Source: an uncultured Acidimicrobiia bacterium
GTDB lineage: Bacteria; Acidobacteriota; Vicinamibacteria; Vicinamibacterales; SCN-69-37
Reading direction: 5' to 3'
Assembly (NCBI GenBank): GCA_966252305.1
Contig: CBINOO010000002.1
Coordinates: 98,862 to 162,861, forward strand
DNA length: 64,000 bases
Within the stretch, counting starts at the first letter, position 1; each line of letters begins with the position of its first letter. The notes beneath the pieces are model-generated. The model made no database searches, was not told the DNA's origin, and saw nothing but the letters and a program-made list of their open reading frames with translations. Below are positions 42,593-60,478 of the stretch, one piece after another. The translations under genes and the position numbers were made by a program.

Positions 42593-44014
42593 TCAGAGCA
42601 GTTTCGCTGCCAGCTCGGCGATCTTCGATCGCACCACGTCGCTCATCGTCAGGTGCGCAAACGAAGGTTCGCCCTTGAACCGTTCCACAACCTGCACGAT
42701 GCCGTTCGACAGCGCGTCCACCTCCGGCCTGTCGATCTGGTCGGGGTCGCCCGTCAGGATGATGCGGGTGCCTTCGCCGGCGCGGGTGAGCACCAGCTTC
42801 ATGTCGCCCTGCGTGAGGTTCTGTCCGTCATCCACAATGACGACGGCGTCGTGAATGGAGCGGCCGCGCAGGTAGTTGATCGGCGAAATCTCGAGGACGT
42901 TCCGCGCGAGCAGGTCCTCGATGGTTGCCGATGGCGCGCCGTTGGGACGGTCGCCATTCTCAACCGGCTGATTGGTGAACCGCGCCGAGCCGGACATCCT
43001 CCGGATGATGAAGTCCAGGTTGTCGAGAATCGGCTTCGCCCATGGCGCCATCTTGTCGTTGACGGTGCCCGGCAGAAAGCCCAGGTCGCGACCGGCCTCC
43101 GCGTTCACCCGGTACACCTCGATCTTCGACACACGGCCCGAGCGATACAGCTCGTAGGCCGTTAACAACGCCATCAGCGTCTTTCCGGTGCCGGCGATGC
43201 CCACCAGACTCGTGATGAGCGTGTCATCGTCCATGATCAGGTCCCGGGCGCACGCCTGTTCCGGATTGATCGGGCCGAAGCGCTCGGTCTGTTTGAAGTG
43301 CACGCGACGCAGGTACGACACGCCGTCGTGTTTCTTGAGGATTCCCCAGGCAGCCTTGCCGTTGCCATTCACGCGAAGTTCACAGCACTGATTGGCCAGC
43401 AGCGTCGACGTGTCGATGAAGTCCGCGAGTTCGTTGGTGGGGAGGCGCTGCTCCACGTGCAGAGCGTTGAGCAGTGGCGCCTTTTCGGTCGGCAACTGAA
43501 TACGCACACGACCCGAGTAGAACTTGTCTGGCGATGACACCGGGCGGTCGGAGTAATAGTCCTCCGCCATCAGACCACGCGCGCGCGCCTTGCAGCGCAT
43601 CGCCGCGTCGCGTGTGATCAGCACGACCGGCACATCGGGATGTGACTCCTGATAGGCGTTCGCCAGAAGGATGATCGCGTCGTCTGCGTAGCCGGGCGAG
43701 AAGCCCGGCCACGCGCGTGACACATCGAGTTCGCCGCCGTGGAACTTCACCAGGCCGCTGCGCAGCGGAATGCCGTCACGCAGCTGCGCCGGTGATGCGT
43801 CGTTCTGCAGTTGGTCCAGGAACCGGATCGTCTGTCGCGCGGTGTAGCCGACGCCGTTGGTATCGACGCGACGACGGTCCAGTTCCTGGAGGACCGGGAA
43901 GGGAATGATGACGGTGTTGTCGACCGTCAGGTGTTCGAGTGCATCCGGAGCCGAAACGAGAACGCTGGTATCAACGACATAGACCTTGCCACCAACCATC
44001 CGGGGTGGAACCAT
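42593..44014 (-). CDS. PIN-domain plus PhoH ATPase protein (PhoH2/YbeZ-like family)
   Basis: PIN motifs VVDTSVL, V.QELD and DDAI. PhoH motifs GIAGTGKT, LGFLPG, YLRGRS, DDGQN, LTRAG and GDPDQID. Confidence 0.9.
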   Translation of the reverse strand: MVPPRMVGGKVYVVDTSVLVSAPDALEHLTVDNTVIIPFPVLQELDRRRVDTNGVGYTARQTIRFLDQLQNDASPAQLRDGIPLRSGLVKFHGGELDVSRAWPGFSPGYADDAIILLANAYQESHPDVPVVLITRDAAMRCKARARGLMAEDYYSDRPVSSPDKFYSGRVRIQLPTEKAPLLNALHVEQRLPTNELADFIDTSTLLANQCCELRVNGNGKAAWGILKKHDGVSYLRRVHFKQTERFGPINPEQACARDLIMDDDTLITSLVGIAGTGKTLMALLTAYELYRSGRVSKIEVYRVNAEAGRDLGFLPGTVNDKMAPWAKPILDNLDFIIRRMSGSARFTNQPVENGDRPNGAPSATIEDLLARNVLEISPINYLRGRSIHDAVVIVDDGQNLTQGDMKLVLTRAGEGTRIILTGDPDQIDRPEVDALSNGIVQVVERFKGEPSFAHLTMSDVVRSKIAELAAKLL

Positions 44015-46595: not shown

Positions 46596-47753
46596 ATGTC
46601 CACACGCCAGGTGTATCTCGACTATCACGCGACGACTCCGGTCGATCCCCGAGTGCTCGAGGTCATGCTGCCGTTTTTTACCCAGGAATTCGGCAATCCC
46701 GCATCGGCCAGCCATGCGTTTGGCTGGAAAGCGCAGGAAGCGGTCGAGACCGCCAGACGGCAGGTGGCGGCCCTGATCGGCGCCTCAGCGCGAGAGATTG
46801 TTTTCACCAGCGGCGCCACCGAATCGAACAACTGGGCGATCAAGGGCGTGGCAGCCGCCGCGCCGGCTTCACGCCGGCATGTCGTCTGCTCGGCGATTGA
46901 GCACAAGTCGGTGCTCGAAGCGTGCAAATCGCTCGAGTCGTCGGGGTGGTCGCTGACGATCGTGCCGGTTGAGCGCGACGGGCGCGTCGATCCGGCGGCG
47001 CTGGCGGGGGTCGTCACCGAACAGACCGCGCTGGTCAGCGTCATGGCCGCCAACAACGAAATTGGCGTGGTGCAGCCGCTGGCCGAGGTCACGGCCATCG
47101 CCCACGCGAAAGGCGCGTTGGTGCACTCGGACGCCGCGCAGGCGGTCGGCAAGATTCCACTGGATGTCCAGGCGCTGGGGATCGATCTGCTCTCGTTGAC
47201 GGCCCACAAGATGTACGGCCCGAAAGGGTGCGGCGCGCTCTTTATTCGGAAGAAGACGAACCTTGCGCCGTTCATCATCGGCGGCGGACAGGAACGCGGG
47301 TTCCGCTCGGGCACGCTGAACGTGCCCGGCATTGTTGGCCTCGGATATGCATGTCATCTCGATCGGCTCGAGATGGCTGAGGAGTGTGCGCGACTGCGCG
47401 CCTTGCGGGATCGACTGCTTGAAGGGTTGTCCGCCAGGGTCGGTGGTGTGCGCGTGAACGGCACCATGGCCGCGCGCCTGCCGCACAACCTTCATGTGGC
47501 GTTTGATGATGTCGACGGTGAGTCGCTGATCATCGGCATCGGCGACATCGCGGTGTCCTCAGGGTCCGCGTGCAGCAGCGCGTCGGCCACTCCGTCGCAT
47601 GTGTTGCGGGCGTTGTTCGGCGAGGCCGCCGTGCCTGCCGCCACGGTGCGTTTCGGTCTCGGTCGGTTCACCACCGATGCGGACATCGATTACGCCATCG
47701 AAAAGTTCTCTGCGGTCGTCAAGCGTCTCCGCGACACCGCACCCGTGCGCTAG
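46596..47753 (+). CDS. iscS: IscS/NifS-type cysteine desulfurase
   Basis: Motifs YLDYHATTP, FTSGATESNN, AHKMYGPKG, GGGQERG.RSGT and SSGSACSS. Confidence 0.9.
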   Translation: MSTRQVYLDYHATTPVDPRVLEVMLPFFTQEFGNPASASHAFGWKAQEAVETARRQVAALIGASAREIVFTSGATESNNWAIKGVAAAAPASRRHVVCSAIEHKSVLEACKSLESSGWSLTIVPVERDGRVDPAALAGVVTEQTALVSVMAANNEIGVVQPLAEVTAIAHAKGALVHSDAAQAVGKIPLDVQALGIDLLSLTAHKMYGPKGCGALFIRKKTNLAPFIIGGGQERGFRSGTLNVPGIVGLGYACHLDRLEMAEECARLRALRDRLLEGLSARVGGVRVNGTMAARLPHNLHVAFDDVDGESLIIGIGDIAVSSGSACSSASATPSHVLRALFGEAAVPAATVRFGLGRFTTDADIDYAIEKFSAVVKRLRDTAPVR

Positions 47754-47818: not shown

Positions 47819-48580
47819 GTGACTGCGCCGCCCGTATCGCATGCGGGCCGTGAAACTCGTCTTCTGCTGTTGGTGATTCTCGTCGCCGTGGCGGTACTGC
47901 TCGTACTGGCCCGGTTTCGTTTTCCCACTCCCGAACGCGTGGCGGCGACGCCGCCGGCCGGCCCGATCGAACGTCTGGCCGCCAGAGCCACTTTCGAGGA
48001 ACTCGCGCTCATCATTGCTGATGTGTCGGCACGTGTGGATGCCACGCTCACGGTCGTTGATGTCGCGTCGGTGCCCGCGCCGGCGCCGCCGCGACGGTCA
48101 GCGCCGCCCGCCGCCGCACCCGCGACACAGCGTCGGATGGCGGGACTGCGCGTGGATGCCGATCTCGCGCTGATCTACCTCCCCGCCGGATTCACCATTG
48201 TCACCGGTGACGTGGTGTCGGTGGTCGCGAGCGATCCCGAGCGGCATCTGGCACTCGTGCGTGTTCCGGCCGAGCCGTTTGCCGGGCCTGCCTCGCAGGC
48301 CGCCGCGTTTGGCGGTCCCGGATACGTCGCCGTGTTTGAAGGGTCGCGGGGCGGGTCGGCTGCGCGACCGGAGTTCATCGGTCGGACCGACTCCTTTGAC
48401 GACCCCGCGTGGCCCGATCCTCTGCTGTCGCCAGGGGGACATGCCCACCTGCGGGAGGGCGCGTGGCTCTTCACGCTGGACGGCCGGCTTGTGGGCCTCA
48501 CCGTGCCTGATGGCCCCGGCGTTGCCGTTGCGCGTGCCCGCACGCTCTTCGACATCGTCGAGAGGCTGCGCACGCAATGA
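47819..48580 (+). CDS. Membrane-anchored protein with a degenerate trypsin/HtrA-like fold and no catalytic motif
   Basis: Strong AAAGGAGG RBS and an N-terminal TM helix. VVASDPERHLALVRV and GAWLFTLDGRLVGL echo HtrA strands, but DLA and GNSGG are missing. Confidence 0.6.
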   Translation: MTAPPVSHAGRETRLLLLVILVAVAVLLVLARFRFPTPERVAATPPAGPIERLAARATFEELALIIADVSARVDATLTVVDVASVPAPAPPRRSAPPAAAPATQRRMAGLRVDADLALIYLPAGFTIVTGDVVSVVASDPERHLALVRVPAEPFAGPASQAAAFGGPGYVAVFEGSRGGSAARPEFIGRTDSFDDPAWPDPLLSPGGHAHLREGAWLFTLDGRLVGLTVPDGPGVAVARARTLFDIVERLRTQ

Positions 48581-49755
48581 AACAACGCCGACAGCGAGAG
48601 CTGGGCGGGGCCGACCCGCTCGATCGTCGTCTCGGGGCGCCGCCGCCGTCGCCGTTCTCCTGGTTCCTGTCGCTGCTGCGCACGCGATCGGCCCTCGGCC
48701 TGGCGCCGTCACTGACGCCGGCCGTCGTCTTTGTGCCGATCGGAATTGTGGTGGGTCCGCTTGGGCTCGATCTGATTGGGCCCCGCATGCGGTCGCTGCT
48801 CGACCTGAGCGTGACACTGGCGCTCACGCTGCTCGGGGTGTTCGTCGGCATGGCACTGGGGCGCCAGCGTCGCACGGCCGCCCGCCTCCTGGCGGCGGCC
48901 AGCCTCGAAAGTGCGATGACGATCCTGGCGGTTGCCGGCGCGACCGTCTACCTCGTGGCCTCGACCGGACTCCCCCTCGACGCGTCGGCGATCATCGTCG
49001 CGCTCGCTTTGGGTCTGTGTGCGTCGGCTTCGTCGGCGACTTCTGCCGATCCCAACGCCGACCCGGCTGCTGCGATCGCGACAGATGTCGCTGACCTCGA
49101 CGACATCCTGCCCATCGTGGTTGCCGCCGGCGTGTTCACCGTCGCGACCGGCACGGGCGCTGAGCGCTGGTGGATCGCGCTCATGCCTGTCGGGCTCGGA
49201 CTGGTGACCGGACTGATTGGCTGGCTGCTCTTCGAGCGAGCGGAGTCCGTGGCTGAGCGCGGCGTGTATGTGCTCGGCACGCTGGCGCTGGCCGGTGGCG
49301 CGGCCGCATACATCGATGTCTCTCCGCTGTCGGTGGGGCTGGTGGCTGGTCTGGTCTGGACGCGCGCGCCCGGTCGCGCCGATCGAATTGTCCGCGACGA
49401 CCTCGGCAAACTGCAGCATTCGCTTGTGGTGCTGCTGTTGCTCACCGCCGGCGCACTGTGGATGCCATCGCCATCCGGCGCGTGGCTGCTCGTGCCGTAT
49501 CTGCTGTTCCGGCTTGCGGGCAAAGTGGCAGGCGGATGGCTTGCCGCGCGCATGCTCGGCGACGTGCGACCATCCGACATGGCGGCGTACCTCATGTCGC
49601 CTGGAGTCGTCGGGATCGCATTCGCGCTCAACTTCCGGCAGATCCTGCCGGTCGCGACTGGTGACGCCCTGTTGTGGGCCGTGACGATCGGTACCGCGCT
49701 GTTTGAAGTCTTTGCGGTGGTGGCGTTGCCCATGTGGCGGGGAGCGCGACGGTAA
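48577..49755 (+). CDS. Polytopic membrane protein, cation:proton antiporter (CPA)-like
   Basis: About 11-12 hydrophobic segments. Motifs GIVVGPLGL.LI, A.LDD, SPL.VG..AG and LFRLAGK..GG. Confidence 0.65.
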   Translation: MKQRRQRELGGADPLDRRLGAPPPSPFSWFLSLLRTRSALGLAPSLTPAVVFVPIGIVVGPLGLDLIGPRMRSLLDLSVTLALTLLGVFVGMALGRQRRTAARLLAAASLESAMTILAVAGATVYLVASTGLPLDASAIIVALALGLCASASSATSADPNADPAAAIATDVADLDDILPIVVAAGVFTVATGTGAERWWIALMPVGLGLVTGLIGWLLFERAESVAERGVYVLGTLALAGGAAAYIDVSPLSVGLVAGLVWTRAPGRADRIVRDDLGKLQHSLVVLLLLTAGALWMPSPSGAWLLVPYLLFRLAGKVAGGWLAARMLGDVRPSDMAAYLMSPGVVGIAFALNFRQILPVATGDALLWAVTIGTALFEVFAVVALPMWRGARR

Positions 49756-52466
49756 TGCGACGCCTTGCCGCCCTGACGATCACGATCATTCTCGCCTGGC
49801 TGCTCGTGGCCCGGCTGGGTGACACGACGGCGACGACCACTGCGCTTGCGCTCGGTGTCGCGCTCATCGCAGCGACGATCGTCGGCTGGCTGCTCGAGTT
49901 CGTGCGCCTCCCAAGGCTGACAGGGTACCTGGCCTTCGGCCTGGTCTGCGGCCCGTTTGTCGCCGACATCATCACCCGACCAATGGCGCGCGACCTGCAG
50001 CTGGTCAACGGCCTGGCCATCGCGGTGATCGCGTTCAGTGCCGGTCTCCAGCTCAACATCTCGCGGCTGCGCGCGCGCCTGCGCACGATTTCAACGATGG
50101 CCGCCGTGACCATCGGCCTGACCTTCGTCGGGTTGTATGCGCTGCTGTTTTTTGCGTGGCCCTGGCTGCCGATTGCGCCGGACGTCACCCTGGCTCAGCG
50201 CGCAGCCATCGTGGCGGTGGCCACCTCGGTGCTTGTGGCGTTTTCTCCCACGGTGACGTTGGCCGTGATGGCCGAAACGCGCGCGCGCGGACGCCTGGCC
50301 GAACTGACCCTCGCCGTGGTCGTGCTTGGCGACCTTGCGCTGATCCTGCTGTTTGCGATTTCGATGGAGTGGACCCGCGGCGTGTTCCTCGAAACGCCGA
50401 ACGCGCCGGAACTGGTGGCGTCCCTCCTGTGGGAGCTGCCGGGCTCGATGGCCTTTGGCGTCGCGGTGGGCGCATTGTTCGCGTTGTACCTGCGATGGGT
50501 TGGTCGCGAAGTCACGCTGGCGCTCGTTGCGTTGTGCGCCGTGTTGTCCGGGGCCAGCGAGTTGTGGCAGTTCGACGGGTTGATTGCCGCGCTGGTCGCC
50601 GGCCTGGTCGTTGAAAACGTCACGACCGAACAAGGCGACGTGTTGCGGGATGCGATCGAGCGTGGATCGACGCCCATCCTGGTGGTGTTCTTCACGGCTG
50701 CCGGCGCGTCATTCCAGGTCGATGCGCTCGCCGTCATCGGCGTGTTTGCCGTCGTCATGGTCGCCATTCGCGTTGCGCTGCTGTATGTGGGCACCCAGAT
50801 CGGCGCGCGGGTCGCCCGCGCCGATGACGAGGCGACGCCGCTGTTGTGGCGCGGACTAGTGTCCCAGGCCGGGATCACGCTGGGCTTGACCATCCTCGTG
50901 TCGACCGAATTCCCCGACTGGGGCGGACGCTTCGAAACGCTCGTGGTCTCGATGATCGCGATGCACGAAGTCATAGGCCCGATTCTGTTCAAGGCCGCAC
51001 TGGTGCGCGTCGGCGAGACGGGACGGTCGGCCGGTGGACTGGTGGTCGTCTCCAACCGTGAACCGTACCTGCATCAATATGCCGACGATGGCAGCATCAC
51101 CGTGCGGGCGACGCCTGGCGGCGTCTCGGTCGCGCTTGATGCGTTGATGCGTGAGCGCGGCGGCGTCTGGGTTGCGCACGGCGCAGGCACAGCCGACAAG
51201 GCGGTCGTCGACGAACGGGACTCGGTCGAGGTGCCGCCAGAGAATCCGTCCTACCGGCTGCGACGACTCTGGCTGACACCGGAGGAAGAAGCCGGCTATT
51301 ACACCGGGTTTGCCAACGGCGCGTTGTGGCCGCTCTGCCATCAGGCGCATGTCCGCCCCGTCTTCCGCGCGGAGGAGTGGGAGATGTATCAGCTGGTGAA
51401 CCGCCGGTTCGCCGAGGCCACGGCGGCCGAAGCGCCTGCGGAAGCGTCAGTGTTCCTCAACGACTACCACCTCGCGCTCGTGGCCGAATCGCTGCGCGAA
51501 CTGCGCCCTCGTCTGCGTACTGCGCTCTTCTGGCATATCCCGTGGCCGGACACCGACCGCCTGCGCATCTGCCCATGGCGCGTCGAGATCATTCGCGGCC
51601 TGCTGGCCAACGACCTCGTGGCGTTTCAACTGCCCAGAGACCAGCGTAACTTCCTGCAGGCCGTCGAAGACGAACTGGGGGCTGAGGTCTCTGATGAAAC
51701 CGTGTACCTGGGAGACCGGCCGGTTCGTGTGGCCGCGATTCCCATTGGCGCCGACTTCGACCGCATCACCTCGATCCTGGCCGATGACGCCCTGCCTGGA
51801 CGCATGAGCACACTGCTGGATCGCTACAACCTGCGCGGCCGGGTGATCGGGATTGGGGTGGATCGCCTCGACTACACCAAAGGCATTCCCGAACGGATGG
51901 CGGCGCTTGGGCGCGCCCTTGACCAGTCGCCCGGGCTGGCGTCACGTTTCACGTTCGTGCAGATCGGGGTGCCGTCACGGGAGGACGTGCAGGGCTACGC
52001 GGAGATCTCCGCCGAGGTGGACTCCATCGTTCACGGCATCAACACCCGGCACGGCGAGGGGCCCGACAGCGGACCGATCCTCTACTTGAAGCAGTCGTTC
52101 GCGATGCCCGACCTTGTGGCGTGGTACCGGTTGGCCGACTTCTGCATCGTCTCGTCGCTGCATGACGGCATGAACCTCGTCGCCAAGGAGTTCGTGGCCG
52201 CGCGTGACGACTTCGGGGGCGTCCTGATTCTCAGCGAACTGGCGGGCGCCGCGCAGGAGCTCGAAGAGGCGCTGATCATCAACCCGTACGACGAGCGGGG
52301 ATTCACCGACGCGATCCTGCACGCCGTTGCGATGCCCGAGTGGGAGGTGCGGCGACGTATGCAGGCCCTGCGTCGACGAGTGGCCGGACGCGACGTGCTT
52401 GCGTGGGCCTCCGACATCCTGCATCAACTCGAACGAAGAAAGGTGGGAGGGTTCTTTTCTGGCTGA
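49755..52466 (+). CDS. otsA: Fusion of a cation:proton antiporter-like domain (to ~51020) and trehalose-6-phosphate synthase (GT20, from ~51039)
   Basis: N-terminal half: LPRLTGY..G...GP, IAF.AG.., SP..TLAV..E..ARG, SQAG..LGL and E.IGP. C-terminal half: VVSNREP, GGV..AL, YY.GFAN..LWPLCH, DYHL, FWHIPWP, DRLDYTKG and DGMNLVAKE. Confidence 0.88.
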   Translation: MRRLAALTITIILAWLLVARLGDTTATTTALALGVALIAATIVGWLLEFVRLPRLTGYLAFGLVCGPFVADIITRPMARDLQLVNGLAIAVIAFSAGLQLNISRLRARLRTISTMAAVTIGLTFVGLYALLFFAWPWLPIAPDVTLAQRAAIVAVATSVLVAFSPTVTLAVMAETRARGRLAELTLAVVVLGDLALILLFAISMEWTRGVFLETPNAPELVASLLWELPGSMAFGVAVGALFALYLRWVGREVTLALVALCAVLSGASELWQFDGLIAALVAGLVVENVTTEQGDVLRDAIERGSTPILVVFFTAAGASFQVDALAVIGVFAVVMVAIRVALLYVGTQIGARVARADDEATPLLWRGLVSQAGITLGLTILVSTEFPDWGGRFETLVVSMIAMHEVIGPILFKAALVRVGETGRSAGGLVVVSNREPYLHQYADDGSITVRATPGGVSVALDALMRERGGVWVAHGAGTADKAVVDERDSVEVPPENPSYRLRRLWLTPEEEAGYYTGFANGALWPLCHQAHVRPVFRAEEWEMYQLVNRRFAEATAAEAPAEASVFLNDYHLALVAESLRELRPRLRTALFWHIPWPDTDRLRICPWRVEIIRGLLANDLVAFQLPRDQRNFLQAVEDELGAEVSDETVYLGDRPVRVAAIPIGADFDRITSILADDALPGRMSTLLDRYNLRGRVIGIGVDRLDYTKGIPERMAALGRALDQSPGLASRFTFVQIGVPSREDVQGYAEISAEVDSIVHGINTRHGEGPDSGPILYLKQSFAMPDLVAWYRLADFCIVSSLHDGMNLVAKEFVAARDDFGGVLILSELAGAAQELEEALIINPYDERGFTDAILHAVAMPEWEVRRRMQALRRRVAGRDVLAWASDILHQLERRKVGGFFSG

Positions 52467-53277
52467 ATCACCCGACGTGGTGGCCGGCGCCGTGCTGGAT
52501 TGGCTTGCGGAGCGGCCATTGCTGCTCGCCACGGACTTTGACGGAACACTGGCGGACATCGCTCCGACACCTGATGCGGCGGTGATGTCGGAGAACGTCG
52601 CGACCGCGCTCGCGCAATTGTCAGAACATCCGCGGGCGACGGTCGCCGTCGTCAGTGGGCGGCGGATGGACGATGTTCGCGCTCGCACCGGTGACGTCGC
52701 CGCGTACGTGGGCGGGCTGCATGGTCTGGAAGTCGCGGGACCCAAGGGGGGATTCCTGCATCCGGCACTCAAGGATGTGGAGCCGGTGCTGGCAGACATC
52801 CGGCAGCGCGCCGTCGCCAGGCTCGAGTGGTGTGAGGGTGTCGTCATCGAAGACAAACAGTTCGCGTTGACGTGCCATGTACGCCGCGTCGCGCCAGAGC
52901 TGGCGGGCCGCGCTCTGGGGCAGTTCCTGGATATTGCCCAGCCGGCGCTTGACGCCGATGTGCTGCGCGCCCTGCCCGGCGCGCAGGCGCTGGAACTGCT
53001 GCCGTCGGTGGACTGGCACAAAGGCAAGGCCGTCGAGTGGATCCGCTCGGTGGTCGACACCGGACCGCAGTCGGGCGTCGGCGTTGTGTACCTTGGTGAC
53101 GACCGGACCGACGAGGATGCGTTTGCCACCCTGGGACGGCGCGGCATTTCGATAGGCGTGGGCTCCAGGCCCAGCGAGCGCCTGATTCAGCATCGTCTTG
53201 CTGGACCGGCTGACGTTGGTGTGTTGCTGCGGCGGTTGCATGCGGCGCTTCCGTCTCGCGCGCACCAGGCGTCCTGA
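52459..53277 (+). CDS. otsB: Trehalose-6-phosphate phosphatase (HAD family)
   Basis: Motifs TDFDGTL, VVSGR, GLHGLE, EDK, KGKAV and YLGDDRTDEDAF. The start is uncertain (CTG 52459 or GTG 52477). Confidence 0.88.
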   Translation: MAESPDVVAGAVLDWLAERPLLLATDFDGTLADIAPTPDAAVMSENVATALAQLSEHPRATVAVVSGRRMDDVRARTGDVAAYVGGLHGLEVAGPKGGFLHPALKDVEPVLADIRQRAVARLEWCEGVVIEDKQFALTCHVRRVAPELAGRALGQFLDIAQPALDADVLRALPGAQALELLPSVDWHKGKAVEWIRSVVDTGPQSGVGVVYLGDDRTDEDAFATLGRRGISIGVGSRPSERLIQHRLAGPADVGVLLRRLHAALPSRAHQAS

Positions 53278-53310: not shown

Positions 53311-53652
53311 ATGCCGCGACCAAAGACCAATTCCGACCAGTTGCACGGGACCCTCGACCTGCTTGTGCTGCGGGTGCTCCGCTCCGGGCCGCAGCACGGG
53401 TACGCCATCACGCAGCGACTCAAGGCGCTGTCGGAAGACGTGCTGCAGGTCGAAGAAGGGTCGCTGTATCCGGCCCTGTATCGGATGGAGCAGCGTGGCT
53501 GGATTGCGTCCGAGTGGGCGGTGACCGAGCGAAACCGGCGGGCGCGCTACTACACACTCACACCGGCGGGGCGCCGGCAGGTTGAGGCCGAACGCGCCAG
53601 CTGGTCGCGTCTGTCCGGCGCCGTCAACCTGGTCATCGCAGGGACGGAGTAG
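53311..53652 (+). CDS. PadR-family transcriptional regulator (acidobacterial type)
   Basis: Motifs GTLDLLVL, HGYAI, VEEGSLYPALYRME and NRRARYY.LT..GR. Confidence 0.93.
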   Translation: MPRPKTNSDQLHGTLDLLVLRVLRSGPQHGYAITQRLKALSEDVLQVEEGSLYPALYRMEQRGWIASEWAVTERNRRARYYTLTPAGRRQVEAERASWSRLSGAVNLVIAGTE

Positions 53653-53654
53653 CC

Positions 53655-56294
53655 ATGCGTCTCTGGCGAGTGCTTCGCGCGCGGGTGCGTGCCCTGTTTG
53701 GTCGCGACGTGGTGACCGGCGAGGTCAGTGAAGAACTGCAGCACCACATCGACCTTGCCACCGACGACAACATCGCGAATGGCATGTCGCCGGCCGATGC
53801 GCGTGCCGAGGCGATGCGGCGCTTCGGGAACGTGCCCTCGCTGCAGGATCGCGCGTATGACGTACGCGGAGGCGGCGTGATTGAAGCGATCTGGCGAGAC
53901 GCCCGCTACGCCGGCCGCGTCATGCTTCGGCAGCCGGTCTTCTCGGCGATCGCTGTCGCGACAATTGCGCTTGGTGTGGGCGCCACGTCCACGATCTTCG
54001 GCGTCGCCAACGGCGTGTTGCTCAAGCCGCTGCCGTACGCCGAGCCGGATCGGCTGGCGATGGTCTGGATGACCAACGCGCGGATCAACCTCCGGGAGGA
54101 TTGGCATTCGCTCCCCAACATCGAGGACTACCGCGCCGCCAACTCGACCTTCGACGCCATCGCCGTGTACAACACGACCGCCCTCAACCTCACCGGTCAG
54201 GGAGATGCGCAGCGGGTCACCGGCGCTCGCGCGTCGGCGAATCTCTTTGACGTGTTGGGCGTGGAGGCCGCGCGCGGCCGGGTGTTTACGGCAGAGGAGG
54301 ATCAGCCCGGGCGTGACGCCGTGGTGGTGCTTTCGCACGGATTCTGGCAACGGGCATTTGGGGGCGACCCCGCCATCCTTGGCCGCACGATCGAATTGTC
54401 CGGCCGCACGCGTGAAGTCATCGGCGTCATGCCGCAGGGCTTTGCGTTTCCAGCGCCGGCCACCGAGTTCTGGATTCCGAACGCGCCCTCCGAGCAACTG
54501 CGGAACAGTCGCGGATCCCTGTGGCTGCTCGCGATCGGGCGCATGAAGCCGGGCATCAGCGTGGAGCGTGCGCAGGCAGACCTGGAGCCCATCGCCGAAG
54601 ACATCGTGCGGCGATTCCCCAATCAGGAGGGCTACGGCGTCTATGTGGCCGGATACCACGAGTCCCTCGTGGCTCGCACCCGGCCGGCCATCGTGGCCCT
54701 GCTCGGCGCGGTCACATTCCTCCTCCTCATCGCCTGCGTCAACGTCGCGAACCTGTTGTTGTCTCGCGCCTCGGTGCGGGAGCGCGAGATTGCCCTGCGA
54801 ACCGCGATTGGCGCGGGCCGATGGCGACTGGTGCGGCAGTTGCTCACCGAAAGCCTCGTCCTGGCGTGTACCGGCGGTGCAGTGGGACTGGCGCTGGCCT
54901 GGCTCGGCCTGCGCACCCTTGTGGCGACGGCGCCCGCGAACCTCCCGCGGCTGGACAACATCACGCTCGACTGGACGGTGATTGGGTTCTCGTTTGCCGC
55001 CGCGCTGGTCACCGGCCTGATCTTCGGTGTCGTGCCGGCGTGGCAAATCAGCCGCTCCGGCATCGGCAGCGCGCTCAAGGAGGGCGGCCGAGGTGTGTCC
55101 TCCGGCGTCGGTCGTTGGGTAGGGCGCACGCTGGTGGTCGTGCAGGTGGCACTGGCTCTTGTCCTGCTCACCGGCGCAGGCCTGATGGTGCAGAGCTTCA
55201 TGCGCATGCAGGGGCTCGATCTCGGCTTTGACGGCGCGCGAGTGATGACGATGCAGATGACCGTGTCGGGCCAGGCCTACCAGACACCAGCCGCGGGTGT
55301 GGCCTTCTTCGAGCGCGTGCTCGAGCGCGTGCGCGCAGTACCCGGCATCGAAAGCGCTTCACTCGTGTCCGGACTGTTTCTTTCAGCAACACCCAATTCG
55401 ACCGGCTTCAATATCGAAGGGCGACCGGTCTTCAGTCCGGTCGAGAGTGTTGAGGTGCCGGTCGACGCCGTGGCTCCCGGGTACTTCGCTACGATGCGGA
55501 TCCCCGTACGACGTGGTCGCGAATTCCAGCCATCTGACACGGCCGACGCCACACCCGTCGTCATCATCAACGAGACCATGGCCAGGCAGTTCTGGCCGGG
55601 CGAGGACCCGGTGGGACGTCGAATCACCTACGGTGTGCCCGACACCAACACCCAGTGGCTCACCATCGTGGGTGTGGTGGCCGATACGAGGCGCACCGGC
55701 TACGAAGCGCCCGTGCGGCCTGAGACCTACCTTCCGCTGGCCCAGTTTCCCTCTCGCAGCATGATGCTGGTTGCGCGCACGGCGGGAGAGCCCCTCGCGA
55801 TGCTGCCCGCGATTCGACGTGTCGTGCGCGAGATCGATCCGGGTCAGCCCATCTACCGCGAGGCGACCGTTGACGAGTTGTCGTCCGCGCTGACCGCGGA
55901 ACGCCGCCTCAATACGGTGCTCTTCGTCATCTTCGCTGTGGTCGCGGCTCTGCTGGCCGCCGCAGGCATTTACGGGGTGATTGCGTATTCGGTGGAACAA
56001 CGCAGGCGTGAGCTGGGGGTGCGTCTCGCGCTGGGGGCGCAGCCGCCGGCGGTCTTCGCCCTGGTGCTGCGCGAAGGCATGGTCATGGCGGTTGTTGGTG
56101 TCATCGGAGGCGTGCTCGCGGCACTTGCGGCGACCAGTGCCATGAGCACGCTCCTGTACGACACCAGCGCGACCGATCCCTGGACGTTCACGATGATGGC
56201 ACTGGGCGCCCTGATTGTGGCGGCGCTCGCCTGTGTGTGGCCGGCCTGGCGTGCCATGCGCGTGGACCCGCTCACGGCACTCCGGGCCGAGTGA
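53655..56294 (+). CDS. Duplicated MacB/FtsX-type orphan ABC permease (ADOP-like) with an N-terminal prefix domain
   Basis: Prefix EEL..H....GMS..AR..A.RRFG. Motifs LLIACVNVANLLL.R...R.RE...R.A.GA, RRRELGVRLALGA and P..RA.RVDP..ALR.E. Confidence 0.92.
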   Translation: MRLWRVLRARVRALFGRDVVTGEVSEELQHHIDLATDDNIANGMSPADARAEAMRRFGNVPSLQDRAYDVRGGGVIEAIWRDARYAGRVMLRQPVFSAIAVATIALGVGATSTIFGVANGVLLKPLPYAEPDRLAMVWMTNARINLREDWHSLPNIEDYRAANSTFDAIAVYNTTALNLTGQGDAQRVTGARASANLFDVLGVEAARGRVFTAEEDQPGRDAVVVLSHGFWQRAFGGDPAILGRTIELSGRTREVIGVMPQGFAFPAPATEFWIPNAPSEQLRNSRGSLWLLAIGRMKPGISVERAQADLEPIAEDIVRRFPNQEGYGVYVAGYHESLVARTRPAIVALLGAVTFLLLIACVNVANLLLSRASVREREIALRTAIGAGRWRLVRQLLTESLVLACTGGAVGLALAWLGLRTLVATAPANLPRLDNITLDWTVIGFSFAAALVTGLIFGVVPAWQISRSGIGSALKEGGRGVSSGVGRWVGRTLVVVQVALALVLLTGAGLMVQSFMRMQGLDLGFDGARVMTMQMTVSGQAYQTPAAGVAFFERVLERVRAVPGIESASLVSGLFLSATPNSTGFNIEGRPVFSPVESVEVPVDAVAPGYFATMRIPVRRGREFQPSDTADATPVVIINETMARQFWPGEDPVGRRITYGVPDTNTQWLTIVGVVADTRRTGYEAPVRPETYLPLAQFPSRSMMLVARTAGEPLAMLPAIRRVVREIDPGQPIYREATVDELSSALTAERRLNTVLFVIFAVVAALLAAAGIYGVIAYSVEQRRRELGVRLALGAQPPAVFALVLREGMVMAVVGVIGGVLAALAATSAMSTLLYDTSATDPWTFTMMALGALIVAALACVWPAWRAMRVDPLTALRAE

Positions 56295-56297
56295 TGC

Positions 56298-56930
56298 CTA
56301 CTGGACGCGGTCGTAGACGCGCTTGATCTCGGTGACCGGCAGCCGCGTCATCGTCGCCGAGATCTTGACGGTGACGGTCAGCTGCTTGCCGTCGGCGCTG
56401 GGGACGTAGTCCTCAACGACCTTGAGGGATTCCCGTGTGGTGATCTCTCGGCGCAGCCCCGACTTGCCCTCCCACTTCACCTTGATCTCGAGTGGGCCGG
56501 CCTCGGTGGCCTGCGTGGTCTTTTTGCCGTCCGTGGTGTACTTCGCGGCCATCTGTTTTGCCGGATCCGGATCGAACACGATCAGCACATCCTTCATCGT
56601 CGCCTGAATGCCAAGCGTCGGTGGCGCCTGCCGCAGCATGCGGAGATGGCTATTCAGACGTTGCGCCTCTTCGACCCCCAGATCGCCGCCGGGAGGCGGA
56701 CCGCTGCCCACTGACGTCTGATTCGGTCCACGGTCGGGTCCCGACCGATTGCCACGCCCCCGCGCTCCGGCGCCTTCGGGACCATTGGGGTTCACGCTCG
56801 CGTCGACATTGAGTTTCCAGCCGCCCGACAGCGCTGCGGGAAGATCGGCAGGCTGTGATGCGGCCGCAGTCAGGGGAAGAACGACGGCCAGCAGGCCGAT
56901 GAGTACAGGTCGTGCTCGATGGTGCGCCAT
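56298..56930 (-). CDS. Hypothetical exported protein (possible beta-barrel/lipocalin-like)
   Basis: Signal peptide, LSG.WKLN...S, a Gly-rich insert, and a C-terminal S.DGK.LTV...RVYDR. Confidence 0.7.
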   Translation of the reverse strand: MAHHRARPVLIGLLAVVLPLTAAASQPADLPAALSGGWKLNVDASVNPNGPEGAGARGRGNRSGPDRGPNQTSVGSGPPPGGDLGVEEAQRLNSHLRMLRQAPPTLGIQATMKDVLIVFDPDPAKQMAAKYTTDGKKTTQATEAGPLEIKVKWEGKSGLRREITTRESLKVVEDYVPSADGKQLTVTVKISATMTRLPVTEIKRVYDRVQ

Positions 56931-57018
56931 ATGCGCCAGACCTCCGGCAGCGATTCTACGCCCATCTCACCCACGCCACGCAGGCAGGCCAACCCCGCCT
57001 CGCCTTTTATCGTCTATT

Positions 57019-57037
57019 TGCTTCACAATGTGAAGCA
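57019..57037. promoter_or_regulatory. Palindromic operator candidate directly upstream of the second padR
   Basis: Perfect TGCTTCACA-a-TGTGAAGCA ending 1 nt before the ATG at 57039. Confidence 0.65.
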
Positions 57038-57038
57038 T

Positions 57039-57356
57039 ATGTTGGGCGAGTTTGAACATCTCGTATTGCTGGCCGTGTTGCGGCTGGGTGAAGACGCGTA
57101 TGGCGCCACCATCCGGCGGGAGATTGAGTCACGCGTACGACGGGAGCTGTCCATCAGCGCGACGTACGTCACCCTCGACCGCCTCGAAGGGAAGGGCCTG
57201 GTGCGGTCCCGCATCGGAGAACCCACGGCCGAGCGGGGCGGCCGACGCCGGCGCCACTACGCGCTGACCGCCCCGGGACGCCGCGCACTGGCGGCGAGTC
57301 ATCGCGCCTTCCGAACGATGGCCGAGGGGCTGGAAGAGGAACTGGAGCGTTCGTGA
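57039..57356 (+). CDS. PadR-family transcriptional regulator
   Basis: Motifs LGEFE.LVLLA, AYG..I, YVTLDRLE.KG and RGGR.RR.Y.LT..G. Confidence 0.92.
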   Translation: MLGEFEHLVLLAVLRLGEDAYGATIRREIESRVRRELSISATYVTLDRLEGKGLVRSRIGEPTAERGGRRRRHYALTAPGRRALAASHRAFRTMAEGLEEELERS

Positions 57357-59953
57357 ATCGCGTCATTGCCACGCTGGTCGCACGCTGCCTTCCCGCCGAC
57401 TCAAGGGACGTGATTCTCGGCGACCTTGAGGAGGAGTGGCGCGAACGGCGGGATGGACGGGGCGCTGCGCACGCGTCGTGGTGGCTGTGCCGCGCGACGG
57501 TGCGCGCGTGCGTGATCCGCACGGGATTGGATCCGGCGCCGGCGTCATCCGGCGTCGAGATGGGGGAACAGATGAGGCACATGTGGAGCGGGTTTGGCCA
57601 GAGCGCGCGCGCGCTGGCACGCAGGCCCCTGACAACGCTGCTGGCCATCCTGACGATTGCGCTCGGTGTGGGCGCCAACGTCGCCATGTTCATCGTCGCC
57701 TGGCCGGTGCTGGCCGGTGCGATGCCGTTTCCCGATGAAGCCAGGCTGACGCTGGTGTCGCTGACGTATCAACGCTCCGACGGCCGTGCCCGGAACAACC
57801 TCTCGGTGGGGGACTACAACGACCTGCGCACCGTCCAGGGCTTTGCTGCCTCAGCGGCCTTCAGCAAGTACACCGCGCAGATGAACCTCGAATCGAGCGA
57901 TGGCGCGGAGCAGCTGACCGTGGCTGCCGTCACGGAGGAGTTCTTTGACACTCTGAAGGTCACACCCGTTGCGGGGAGGGTGTTCAGCCGTCGCTCCGAC
58001 GATCTGACGCGCGCGGTCGTGCTCAGCGAGGGCGCGTGGCGTCGGCGGTTCGGAGCAGCGCCTGATCTCATCGGGCAGAACATCCGCCTCGACGGGGAGT
58101 CGTTCACCGTGATTGGTGTCGCGCCGGCCTGGGCCGGCCTGGGCACCGTGGACGCGGACGCCTGGCGGTGGATGGAGATCAGTCCAGGCCTTCGCACTCG
58201 CGGCGCGTACTACCTCGGCATGACTGCGCGGCTGCGCGACGACACGTCACTCGCCGTGGCGAACCAGCAGATTGCGGCTGTGATGCAGCGAGCCGCCATG
58301 GAGTTTCCCCAGTTCAACGCGATTCTGAGTGCCGAGGCCGAGCCGCTGCGTGAGGCATCGTCCCGCGCAGTCCACACGACCATGACACTGCTGGTCGTGG
58401 CTGCAGGGCTGGTGTTGCTGGTGGCCGTCGTGAATCTCTCCGGCGTGCAGGTCGCGCGTTTCGTGGATCGGAGTCAGGAACTCGCGGTTCGCAGAGCCAT
58501 CGGCGCCACACGCGCGCAGCTGGCAGCGCTCGTGATGCGCGAGCAACTCCTGGTGGCCGTTGCCGGCGGGGTCGTGGGCACGGCGCTGGCCCTGGCCGCG
58601 GTGCGCGGTCTTGGCGCGGTAGCTCCGTCATTTGGCTGGGCGCGGTTTGTCACCGTCTCGTCACCCGTGCTTGCGGCGTACGCGTGCGCACTGTCGTTGG
58701 TGGCCGCGGTGATTGTCGGCGCGTGGCCGGCGTGGAAAGCCGGCGCGTCTGGTGGGGGATCGCTGCAGACGCGCGACGTGACTGCCGGGCGTCGAGCCGG
58801 CCGTCAACGCGGGTGGATCATGACCCTCCAGGTGGCCGCGACGTGTGTCCTGTTGATCATGGCCGCGTTGGTGTCCCGCAGCCAGTCCGCCGTCCTTTCG
58901 GTCGATACAGGATTCGATCTGTCGAGGACGATGGCTGCGGATGTGAACGTGCCGGCCTCACGGTATTCAGACACCGTGGCGCTGGGCGACTTCTTCAGGC
59001 GTCTGTCGGGCCGTATTGCAGACATCCCCGGCGTCACGCACGTGTGCTTCGTGAACGAAGTGCCGCTCGACCGCGGGCCGGGCAACATGACGTACGTGCC
59101 TGAGGGCACGAAGGGGCTCGTGTCGGCATTGCCGATAACCATTACGGCAGGCTGCCCACAGGCATTCGACGTCCCGCTGCTCTCCGGGCGCTGGTTCACC
59201 GAAGAGGAGCCGACGGAGTCCATCCTTGTGTCGAGAGAGATGGCGCGCAAACTGTTTCCAGACGGGCGCGACCCGGTCGGGCAGCGCGTGCACTTCGGTC
59301 TGCCCACCGGCCAACTGTTCACCATCGTGGGCGTGACTGGAGACATCGTGGTGGCTTCCCTCGAGACCGGTGTCAGTCCTGTCGTCTGGATGCCGCAGGC
59401 GCTGGGGTACTTCACCCCCAAACGCCTGCTGGTCAAGGCTGAGCCAGGGGCAACGGTGGACGTGCGGATGGTCAGACAGGCGTTGCGCGACACCGATCCT
59501 GCCGTTGCGTTGGCGAACGTCCGGTCGATCGACGACATCGTCGCGTCTGCGACGGCGGCGCGGCGGTTTGCGTTACTGCTGTTGGGCGGCTTCGCCGTCG
59601 TGGCGAGTGTCTTGTCTGCGGTCGGTGTCTACGGCCTGCTCGCGCACATCGTCGGAGGACGCCGGCAGGAGATTGGGATTCGTGTGGCCCTGGGCGCGAG
59701 TCAATCGCGCATTGCGGGACTCGTGCTGTTGAGGGTCGGGATGGCCGTGGTCGTCGGCGTGGTCATCGGAGCCGCTGCAGCTGTGCTGATGTCGAAAGGG
59801 ATCGAGTCACTCCTGTTCGACGTGGATACTCGGGACATGCGCAGCTACGCGTGGGCCGCTGCCATCGTCACGATGAGCGCAGGGCTCGCCGCATGGTCGC
59901 CCATACGACGAGCCCTCCGCATCGATCCACTGGCGGCGCTGCGCCAGGACTAA
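57353..59953 (+). CDS. Duplicated MacB/FtsX-type orphan ABC permease (ADOP-like)
   Basis: Prefix LP...R..ILGDLEEE, two MacB-like halves, RRQEIGIRVALGA and RRALRIDPLAALRQD. GTGA-coupled to padR. Confidence 0.9.
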   Translation: MNRVIATLVARCLPADSRDVILGDLEEEWRERRDGRGAAHASWWLCRATVRACVIRTGLDPAPASSGVEMGEQMRHMWSGFGQSARALARRPLTTLLAILTIALGVGANVAMFIVAWPVLAGAMPFPDEARLTLVSLTYQRSDGRARNNLSVGDYNDLRTVQGFAASAAFSKYTAQMNLESSDGAEQLTVAAVTEEFFDTLKVTPVAGRVFSRRSDDLTRAVVLSEGAWRRRFGAAPDLIGQNIRLDGESFTVIGVAPAWAGLGTVDADAWRWMEISPGLRTRGAYYLGMTARLRDDTSLAVANQQIAAVMQRAAMEFPQFNAILSAEAEPLREASSRAVHTTMTLLVVAAGLVLLVAVVNLSGVQVARFVDRSQELAVRRAIGATRAQLAALVMREQLLVAVAGGVVGTALALAAVRGLGAVAPSFGWARFVTVSSPVLAAYACALSLVAAVIVGAWPAWKAGASGGGSLQTRDVTAGRRAGRQRGWIMTLQVAATCVLLIMAALVSRSQSAVLSVDTGFDLSRTMAADVNVPASRYSDTVALGDFFRRLSGRIADIPGVTHVCFVNEVPLDRGPGNMTYVPEGTKGLVSALPITITAGCPQAFDVPLLSGRWFTEEEPTESILVSREMARKLFPDGRDPVGQRVHFGLPTGQLFTIVGVTGDIVVASLETGVSPVVWMPQALGYFTPKRLLVKAEPGATVDVRMVRQALRDTDPAVALANVRSIDDIVASATAARRFALLLLGGFAVVASVLSAVGVYGLLAHIVGGRRQEIGIRVALGASQSRIAGLVLLRVGMAVVVGVVIGAAAAVLMSKGIESLLFDVDTRDMRSYAWAAAIVTMSAGLAAWSPIRRALRIDPLAALRQD

Positions 59954-60306
59954 CTGGCCGCTTTCCACAACCCGATCATGCGGCCCTCGGGATCGAGGAA
60001 CAGGGAGATGGCGCCCATGCCGGGCACGTCCTGTTTCTCAACGATCATCGTTCCGCCGGCGGCCTTGATCTTTGCGGCGTAGACGTCGAGATCATCCACG
60101 TCGATGTAGAACGACGTCGGCGCAGGGATCGGCCCATCCTGCGGCTTCATGATGCCGCCGCCGATGCCACCTTCGCCGGTGTTGACCAGGCGATAGTCCA
60201 TCTCCGGGATGTGCTGAATCTCCCAGTCGAAGACGTTCTTGTAGAAGTCGGAAACCTGCTCCGGATTCTGCGACCACAACTCCCAATGCACTACTGGACG
60301 TCCCAT
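59950..60306 (-). CDS. VOC/glyoxalase family protein
   Basis: Motifs VVHWE, FY..VFDW, GIGGGI, YI.V.D.D and F.DPEG..IGLW. Confidence 0.9.
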   Translation of the reverse strand: MGRPVVHWELWSQNPEQVSDFYKNVFDWEIQHIPEMDYRLVNTGEGGIGGGIMKPQDGPIPAPTSFYIDVDDLDVYAAKIKAAGGTMIVEKQDVPGMGAISLFLDPEGRMIGLWKAAS

Positions 60307-60478
60307 GCGAATTCACTCCTTGGATGCTCTCTTACACCTTGGCATCGTCGTCGTTTAGACGAGAGATGATGCTGCGCCTGGGGGCCGCCGGGATTGCAGA
60401 AATGCGACACGCACTGGTGTCGCTAAATTTTTAGCACTTTCGAGGCGAGTCGGTGTCTAATCGCTGCGAGGTCCCTTC

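What the first reader, a model, noticed from the sequence alone, without database searches (positions are those of the whole stretch)
49755..52466. Trehalose-6-phosphate synthase fused to a cation/proton antiporter-like domain
Seen: one uninterrupted ORF of about 900 aa, with ~420 aa of polytopic CPA-like sequence, a short GETGRSAGG linker and a full GT20 domain with catalytic motifs. Established: OtsA is normally soluble, alone or fused to its phosphatase, and CPA C-terminal domains are usually regulatory (KTN/RCK, USP, CBS). I do not know of a characterised CPA-OtsA fusion. Inference: the transporter may activate synthesis, the enzyme may gate the transporter, or the membrane domain may move the product.
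Basis: partly seen in the sequence, partly recalled or inferred. Interest (0 to 1): 0.78.

Follow-up and report, generated by a model that had tools for sequence, protein, structure and literature searches.

The report
Antiporter-fused trehalose synthase, born by inversion
A family of Acidobacteria makes its only trehalose-6-phosphate synthase as one protein with an ion/proton-exchanger-type membrane domain, a fusion that likely arose twice from neighbouring genes and would tie production of this stress sugar directly to the membrane's ion machinery.

Summary
Confirmed. Window 49755-52466 is one 903-aa ORF: an NhaA-fold CPA domain (14 predicted helices, closest to NHA2/NapA), a 7-residue linker and an OtsA that keeps its catalytic residues. 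It is the genome's only OtsA. The same architecture is in 119 of the 120 best homologues and in 27 of 63 genomes of the family; both halves are under purifying selection. A sister genus holds the same genes unfused and back to back, so the fusion arose by a local inversion. A second fused clade probably arose independently (favoured by trees, not proven: AU p 0.09-0.24). Best reading (0.45, inferred): a two-subunit antiporter anchors OtsA and switches it by ion/pH state. Plain tethering or co-expression (0.30) is not excluded, since each half occurs alone elsewhere. Six literature searches found no description. This scan noted the fusion and module before on other genomes (e1-2503612, e1-4601144, e1-3256697, e1-5315094); the listings I saw do not mention the inversion or a double origin.

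The parts
47819..48580 (+). c1: HtrA/DegS-like pseudoprotease (one conserved N-terminal TM helix plus a trypsin-like domain without the catalytic Ser motif); the two C-terminal PDZ domains of relatives in other families are absent here; ATGA overlap with the next gene
   Evidence: No Pfam hit itself. Long homologues hit PDZ_2/PDZ and, in one, Trypsin_2 weakly, and DegP/AlgW/DegS by phmmer. Alignment of 28 homologues; overlap; dN/dS 0.09-0.24
48577..49755 (+). CPA-A: divergent NhaA-fold protein (392 aa) missed by Pfam; keeps D175-D176 and R312/K316; lacks an N-terminal TM helix and a TM4b helix in the model; TAATG overlap with the fusion
   Evidence: hhalign to the CPA-B profile 98.8%, E 6e-17; AF2 pTM 0.82; Foldseek best NapA 4bwz E 5.7e-8; VIA Z 29.9, rmsd 3.8, 344 aligned to SOS1; dN/dS 0.03-0.13
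49755..51017 (+). CPA-B domain of the fusion (aa 1-421), with an extra N-terminal helix as in NHA2; TM4 S164-P165, ion-site D193, TM10 R339
   Evidence: PF00999; VIA Z 35.4, rmsd 4.0, 387 aligned to bison NHA2 (aa 9-421) and Z 35.1, rmsd 3.6 to NapA (aa 26-421); motif counts
51018..51038 (+). 7-residue interdomain linker (aa 422-428), length-invariant within each clade
   Evidence: pLDDT under 50 at aa 424-427
51039..52433 (+). OtsA / GT20 trehalose-6-phosphate synthase domain (aa 429-893) with R435, Y515/Y516, D570, H594, R704, K709, R742, D804-G-M-N-L808, E812
   Evidence: PF00982; VIA Z 46.2, rmsd 2.2, 454 aligned to 5jio; residues mapped through the 5jij alignment and conserved in at least 119 of 121 rows
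52459..53277 (+). otsB, trehalose-6-phosphate phosphatase; likely starts at a conserved CTG inside the last codons of the fusion gene
   Evidence: TIGR00685 140 bits, cut-off 68; PF02358; in-frame CTG at -8 or TTG at -11 in 17 of 17 clade-1 loci examined

Best explanation
This is a real, conserved gene that joins the cell's only trehalose-6-phosphate synthase to the cytoplasmic end of an antiporter-fold membrane protein, and the membrane part likely anchors the enzyme and likely switches it according to ion or pH state. Shown: the two folds, the intact active site, the operon (c1, CPA-A, CPA-B::OtsA, otsB), purifying selection, and the unfused back-to-back layout in a sister genus from which one inversion gives the fused layout. 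Inferred: CPA-A and CPA-B form one heteromeric exchanger, with c1 as a membrane partner. Inferred: the elevator movement or ion occupancy of CPA-B is passed through the very short linker to the first strand and the Arg435 glucose-6-phosphate loop of OtsA, so that T6P, and through OtsB trehalose, is made when osmotic, ion or pH balance shifts.
For: (1) Fusion kept in 27 of 63 family genomes across 13 of 21 genera, dN/dS 0.08-0.23 for CPA-B and 0.04-0.10 for GT20. (2) It likely arose twice. The unfused genus g254 is sister to the clade-1 fusions (SH-aLRT 99 on CPA-A+B; 93 on OtsA). c1 lacks PDZ in g254 and clade 1 but keeps it in clade 2. The two fused clades share 0 derived residues in 236 OtsA and 110 CPA-B columns scored. 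Their linkers differ. (3) The linker has no length variation within a clade and R435 lies 7 residues after it. (4) The next-nearest OtsA clade (40-47% identity) is itself mostly membrane-fused: 61 of 70 such metagenome loci have an N-terminal extension of at least 248 aa with 2-3 predicted TM helices, with weak Cache-like hits. Six of six genomes of this family checked that lack the CPA fusion carry that sensor-OtsA, and none of the 27 fusion genomes lists a second OtsA of that kind. (5) A 32-member subclade changed the near-universal ion-site Asp193 to Glu/Gln and eroded the TM11 motif yet kept the domain (Asp in 145 of 150 family rows), so CPA-B is retained there for more than canonical transport.
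Against: Each half occurs without the other. Five genomes with the unfused module have no otsA match at E 1e-20 (G312, G177, G120, G431, G031), and seven f10 genomes have a stand-alone OtsA of the same clade. AF2 gives no confident inter-domain packing (pTM 0.56, linker pLDDT under 50). No convergent substitutions mark an interface in the two fused clades. AU tests never reject a single origin (p 0.09, 0.24, 0.225, 0.112). The genes were neighbours before fusing, so the fusion could be a tolerated by-product of inversion. The Asp-to-Glu change is one event, and the window's own protein keeps Asp. 12 of 63 family genomes have no match to either half at E 1e-40.
Confidence: 0.45

Rival explanations
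1. Tethering and co-expression only. The inversion joined two neighbouring stress genes in frame; antiporter and synthase work independently, and the benefit is one promoter and fixed stoichiometry.
For: The genes were adjacent and divergently transcribed before the fusion. Both parts stand alone elsewhere. No interface signal.
Against: Probable double origin, invariant linker length, retention across 13 genera, and the parallel sensor-OtsA family.
Confidence: 0.3
2. Reverse coupling. OtsA is a working enzyme that also acts as the regulatory C-terminal domain of the exchanger, as KTN does in KefC, gating ion flux by G6P, NDP-glucose or T6P occupancy.
For: CPA C-terminal domains commonly regulate transport (KefC, KEA3; PMC7349511 passages). 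The wider CPA-B family carries other C-terminal partners: about 1000-aa helical/AAA/wHTH tails and an ion-channel domain. D193 is kept in the window's protein and in all 55 clade-2 rows.
Against: The module is complete without OtsA in many genomes. The OtsA active site is fully kept and it is the genome's only OtsA. A fused subclade has eroded CPA-B's ion site rather than the enzyme.
Confidence: 0.15
3. The membrane domain exports trehalose or T6P.
For: Proximity of enzyme and transporter; NhaA-fold proteins outside the CPA family carry organic solutes (recalled, no call).
Against: The domain keeps CPA-type ion-site residues and is about 50-56% identical to unfused CPA-B in genomes with no otsA. 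A cytoplasmic OtsB is translationally coupled downstream.
Confidence: 0.04
4. Assembly or sequencing artefact that joins two genes.
For: None found.
Against: 119 of 120 homologues fused; 27 of 63 genomes; an independent gap-free contig across the junction.
Confidence: 0.01

Closest known systems
OtsA / TPS, GT20 trehalose-6-phosphate synthase (M. thermoresistibile 5JIJ/5JIO; E. coli 1GZ5/1UQU)
   Same: Fold (Z 46.2, rmsd 2.2, 38% identity) and donor/acceptor residues listed in PMC6879718; otsB adjacent. Ile at the Leu319 position is the E. coli (UDP-glucose) type.
   Different: Solved OtsAs are soluble; this one is fused to a polytopic membrane domain. It scores below the TIGR02400 equivalog cut-off (422 vs 565 bits).
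Mammalian NHA2 (SLC9B2; 7P1I/7B4L) and T. thermophilus NapA (4BWZ), CPA2 exchangers
   Same: NhaA fold with broken TM4/TM11 helices; CPA-B has the extra N-terminal helix of 14-TM NHA2 (model aligns from aa 1-9 to NHA2, from aa 26 to NapA; PMC8850199 passages); TM5 Asp kept.
   Different: CPA-B has G/A/K-D in place of DD. It is almost always encoded beside a very divergent paralogue, which suggests a heterodimer; known CPAs are homodimers. It carries a biosynthetic enzyme.
KefC/KefB (CPA2 + KTN) and other CPAs with regulatory C-terminal domains
   Same: Soluble nucleotide-binding domain at the CPA C-terminus; JGI annotates some homologues as TPS/KefB.
   Different: No KTN/RCK domain; the C-terminal domain is a complete enzyme with its pathway partner next door; TIGR00932 52 bits vs cut-off 238.
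Thermoproteus tenax TPSP-GT-MSC operon (PMC3634074, abstract and outline seen)
   Same: A trehalose synthase that needs a partner for activation and is co-encoded with a membrane stress protein.
   Different: There the membrane protein is a separate mechanosensitive channel and TPS is fused to TPP; no antiporter fusion.
2-TM sensor-OtsA fusions (uncharacterised; earlier scan notes e1-899802, e1-1286731; seen here)
   Same: OtsA placed C-terminal to a membrane domain, otsB downstream; the nearest other OtsA clade in my tree.
   Different: A two-helix Cache-like sensor with a helical linker rather than a 14-TM transporter; no CPA-A or c1 partner.

Membership tests
OtsA (GT20 TPS) | PF00982 over cut-off and GT-B TPS fold | tested here: met
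   364.6 bits vs 32.5; Z 46.2 to 5jio
OtsA (GT20 TPS) | Donor and acceptor residues (Mtr R18, Y90, D144, H168, R286, K291, R324, D385-L389, E393) | tested here: met
   R435, Y515/516, D570, H594, R704, K709, R742, D804-L808, E812; at least 119 of 121 rows each. Mtr Q146 is His572 here.
OtsA (GT20 TPS) | TIGR02400 equivalog cut-off | tested here: not met
   422.4 vs 564.85 bits; still far above GgpS TIGR02398 (298.6 vs 569)
OtsA (GT20 TPS) | Linked trehalose-phosphate phosphatase | tested here: met
   TIGR00685 over cut-off, adjacent
OtsA (GT20 TPS) | T6P synthesis from NDP-glucose and G6P | not testable with these tools
   needs an assay
CPA superfamily (CPA-B domain) | PF00999 and NhaA fold | tested here: met
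   83.1 bits vs 26.2; Z 35.4 NHA2, 35.1 NapA
CPA superfamily (CPA-B domain) | Motif position 7 Asp on TM5 (PMC6181914) | tested here: met
   D193 aligns with the Asp of the NHE6 ND motif; Asp in 89 of 121 fusions, Glu 31, Gln 1
CPA superfamily (CPA-B domain) | Motif position 8 Arg/Lys on TM10 | tested here: inconclusive
   R339 invariant (150 of 150), but the profile alignment sets it against CPA-A R312, one turn before K316; register not settled
CPA1 | Glu at motif position 5 with Arg at 8 | tested here: not met
   V188; no Glu among the six commonest residues in 150 rows
Electrogenic CPA2 (NhaA/NapA) | Asp6 plus Lys8 | tested here: inconclusive
   Not met in CPA-B (G192). Met in sequence by CPA-A (D175-D176, K316), whose model lacks the TM4b helix; D176 is lost in 6 of 7 clade-2 loci
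CPA superfamily | Cation/H+ exchange activity and dimer state | not testable with these tools
Kef-type (KefB/KefC) | C-terminal KTN/RCK domain | tested here: not met
   no such Pfam hit at E 0.1
HtrA/DegS proteases (c1) | Catalytic Ser motif | tested here: not met
   homologue L041 does not keep the residues around the DegP nucleophile site; no GDSGG-like motif (motif recalled) in 28 aligned homologues
HtrA/DegS proteases (c1) | C-terminal PDZ domain(s) | tested here: not met
   absent in the window's family, present in other families

The most novel reading that the evidence does not exclude
A three-protein membrane device, made of a heterodimeric antiporter and an HtrA-like pseudoprotease that supplies the helix CPA-A lacks, senses envelope or ion stress and directly turns on a covalently attached trehalose-6-phosphate synthase: a transporter used as a receptor for a biosynthetic enzyme, invented twice in one bacterial order.
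Probability: 0.2. Interest if true: 0.87.

Novelty: new variant of a known kind. Interest (0 to 1): 0.66.

Why it matters
Bacterial OtsA is known as a soluble enzyme controlled by transcription and small metabolites, and CPAs as homodimers with non-enzymatic regulatory tails. A fixed CPA-OtsA fusion gives a direct way to test whether a secondary transporter can control a biosynthetic enzyme, and whether CPAs can be heterodimers. Natural controls exist: unfused sister genomes, a subclade with an altered ion site, and an independent-looking second fusion. The g254 layout also gives an unusually clear before-and-after picture of gene fusion by inversion. Vicinamibacterales are abundant, little-cultured soil bacteria (own knowledge) whose osmotic and drying responses are poorly known.

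Tried and rejected
Homology of c1's TM helix to the N-terminal helix of outgroup CPA-A looked plausible by eye, but hhalign gave probability under 1% and did not rank it above other TM windows (197 windows): not supported, kept only as a lead. Natural A-B tandem fusions: 1 plausible (P0261) and 1 apparently frameshifted (P0266) among 149 representatives; too few to lean on. Convergent interface residues between the fused clades: none. AU tests of one fused clade: never rejected. In one search one CPA-A row (L054_5) was mis-binned as CPA-B and was removed afterwards; L021 and L022 were left out, and 12 further loci out, to save run time. All trees used LG+G4 without the mixture model (FastTree). 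No RNA holder listed. Promoter scan 0 sites; terminators 3 vs 4.3 expected. The profile search of CPA-A against PDB sequences found nothing; only the fold search did. The Atlas gave only GT20 clusters at 0.77 for the fusion and unnamed clusters for CPA-A. TreY and TreS families are not over cut-off in the genome; TreT was not searched. Four CPA-B outgroup loci had no CPA-A detected with my profile. The one supplementary file held for PMC6181914 had no clade motifs, so CPA-B is not assigned to a Masrati clade.
Full report
Observation. Window 49755-52466 (+) is one 903-aa ORF with PF00999 at aa 38-350 and PF00982 at aa 429-893. An AlphaFold2 model from a 109-sequence alignment (mean pLDDT 83, pTM 0.56) matches M. 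thermoresistibile OtsA over aa 427-896 (Z 46.2, rmsd 2.2) and bison NHA2 and NapA over aa 9-421 and 26-421 (Z 35.4 and 35.1). A search with aa 1-425 among proteins of 496-1581 aa found 355 relatives; 119 of the best 120 carry both domains, and two are named Acidobacteriota or Vicinamibacterales by NCBI. In the window's family 27 of 63 genomes have a stop-free match across the junction, 12 have no match at E 1e-40, and the rest have unfused or other OtsA or CPA genes (the denominator includes one unpublished genome, G455, on which no other claim rests). An independent contig bridges the junction without gaps. It is the only PF00982 gene in the genome (97.5% complete), and TreY and TreS are not found over cut-off.

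The enzyme half. The donor and acceptor residues named for M. thermoresistibile OtsA (PMC6879718, passages seen) map through the 5jij alignment onto R435, Y515/Y516, D570, H594, R704, K709, R742, D804-L808 and E812, each kept in at least 119 of 121 rows. OtsA scores well above GgpS (422 vs 299 bits), though under the equivalog cut-off, and a trehalose-phosphate phosphatase follows at once. I take it as an active T6P synthase (inferred).

The membrane half and its partners. CPA-B keeps TM4 Ser-Pro, TM5 D193 and TM10 R339; across 149 family representatives plus the query these are 147/149, 145 and 150 of 150. By the CPA motif (PMC6181914, passages seen) it is CPA2-like, without the CPA1 Glu or the electrogenic DD. 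It has one more N-terminal helix than NapA, like NHA2 (PMC8850199, passages seen). Upstream and overlapping by TAATG lies CPA-A (48577-49755), which Pfam misses but which is homologous to CPA-B (hhalign 98.8%) and folds as NhaA. Upstream again, overlapping by ATGA, is c1 (47819-48580), a TM-anchored HtrA-like protein without the catalytic motif; relatives in other families carry two PDZ domains. All 17 intact fused loci mapped have CPA-A directly upstream and 15 have c1 (one contig ends, one has an alpha-amylase-family gene instead). Of 13 unfused order-level loci, 12 have both. In 20 loci picked from the best hits in other orders, 16 have a detectable CPA-A upstream and none has c1. Those outgroup CPA-As begin with a hydrophobic helix that the order-level CPA-As lack (read by eye). 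All three genes and otsB are under purifying selection in four genome pairs. Persistent tandem coupling of two very unlike CPAs suggests a heteromer; I could not test binding.

Ion-site erosion is reciprocal. In clade-1 fusions CPA-A keeps DD and Lys, while one 32-member subclade of CPA-B has Glu or Gln at 193 and a changed TM11 motif. In 6 of 7 clade-2 loci CPA-A has lost D176 while CPA-B keeps Asp. The window's own pair keeps both. This fits a dimer in which one working protomer suffices (inference); it rests on about two events.

Origin. Genus g254 of the same family (G456, G457, G458) has iscS> <CPA-B <CPA-A <c1 | otsA> otsB> <btu, with roughly 100 bp or less between the divergent starts. 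Fused relatives have iscS> c1> CPA-A> CPA-B::otsA> otsB> (mqnD>) <btu. One inversion of the three-gene block converts the first into the second. The module faces the isc genes in the same unfused way in other families (L040-L042, L046-L049), and G038 keeps c1 back to back with a stand-alone otsA, so unfused is ancestral (inference by outgroup). Trees place g254 as sister to these fusions and put a second fused clade, scattered over other families, elsewhere. That clade keeps PDZ on c1, has a different linker and shares no derived residue with clade 1. Two origins are therefore the simplest reading, but AU tests do not reject one (p 0.09-0.24).

Mechanism. For coupling: probable repeated origin, long retention, a linker of fixed length that runs from the last CPA helix into the strand before R435, and a parallel family. 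Of 70 metagenome loci with the next-nearest OtsA (part of the best 80 of 597), 61 have a 2-3 TM N-terminal extension; six family genomes without the CPA fusion that I checked use this form. Against: five genomes have the module with no otsA, seven have the same-clade OtsA alone, the model does not fix the domain orientation, and no convergent interface residues appear. I give membrane-to-enzyme control 0.45, tethering or co-expression only 0.30, enzyme-to-transporter control 0.15, sugar export 0.04.

Literature and novelty. Six full-text searches (listings seen) returned no paper describing a CPA-OtsA fusion or a two-gene heteromeric CPA; the one paper holding all terms (PMC9386147, passages seen) is unrelated. 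The library lacks most subscription journals. [quoted passage not shown] Earlier notes of this scan report the same fusion and module on other genomes; I had mapped the module before reading them, and a word search found no note on inversion or independent origin. Verdict: a real, undescribed variant built from known parts, with a clear evolutionary route and an open but testable mechanism; interest 0.66.

Noticed in passing
window 52459-52466 and 16 related loci: otsB has no conserved ATG/GTG; an in-frame CTG at -8 (14 loci) or TTG at -11 (3 loci) lies in the last codons of the fusion gene in 17 of 17 clade-1 loci. The CTG mostly needs the rare Ser codon TCT (4.6% of Ser codons). Likely a selected near-cognate start; a +1 frameshift giving a CPA-OtsA-OtsB protein is not excluded. 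Unfused g254 uses ATG.
   Followed up: partly
proteins P0255, P0260, P0268, P0276, P0279 and others: The CPA-B family has another large fusion type: 20 of 149 representatives are over 1200 aa, with a long helical tail ending in AAA_16/AAA_22 and sometimes a MarR-like HTH; P0255 ends in an Ion_trans channel domain.
   Followed up: partly
P0261 (835 aa): A single-chain CPA-A + CPA-B tandem protein, both halves with ion-site Asp; one case only.
   Followed up: partly
L076-L145, L180-L183, L017, L018, L020: A widespread 2-TM Cache-like sensor-OtsA fusion; L107 adds a C-terminal TPP domain. It alternates with the CPA fusion inside one genus.
   Followed up: partly
L028 (G032:C96) and L041 (G032:C100): One genome has both a clade-2 fusion, beside an alpha-amylase-family (TreY-like, by my reading) gene and without c1, and an unfused module back to back with otsB at the btu/isc locus.
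   Followed up: partly
L050 (G038:C3): CPA-B without an adjacent CPA-A, downstream of a pyridine-nucleotide oxidoreductase/AIRS (SelD-like, by my reading) gene; c1 and otsA lie back to back elsewhere in that genome (L053).
   Followed up: no
L051-L053, L174-L176, L178, L179: A conserved 167-aa membrane protein (weak DUF4131 hit) lies near stand-alone same-clade otsA in several genomes.
   Followed up: no
window 46596-47753: IscS-like cysteine desulfurase directly upstream and co-oriented after the inversion; the module may now be read from the isc promoter.
   Followed up: no
window 53311-62824: Run of PadR regulators with three MacB/FtsX-type permeases and a glyoxalase-family gene; it replaces the mqnD/btu genes found here in relatives.
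   Followed up: no
window 42593-44014 (-): PIN-PhoH fusion protein.
   Followed up: no
L061: A contig 95% identical in protein to the fusion carries a record title of Acidimicrobiia, while the other titled hits are Vicinamibacterales; probably a mislabelled bin.
   Followed up: no
G000:C3:36697-37782 and G000:C29:6812-7861: Two further PF00999 genes in the genome, one in a 901-aa open frame.
   Followed up: no
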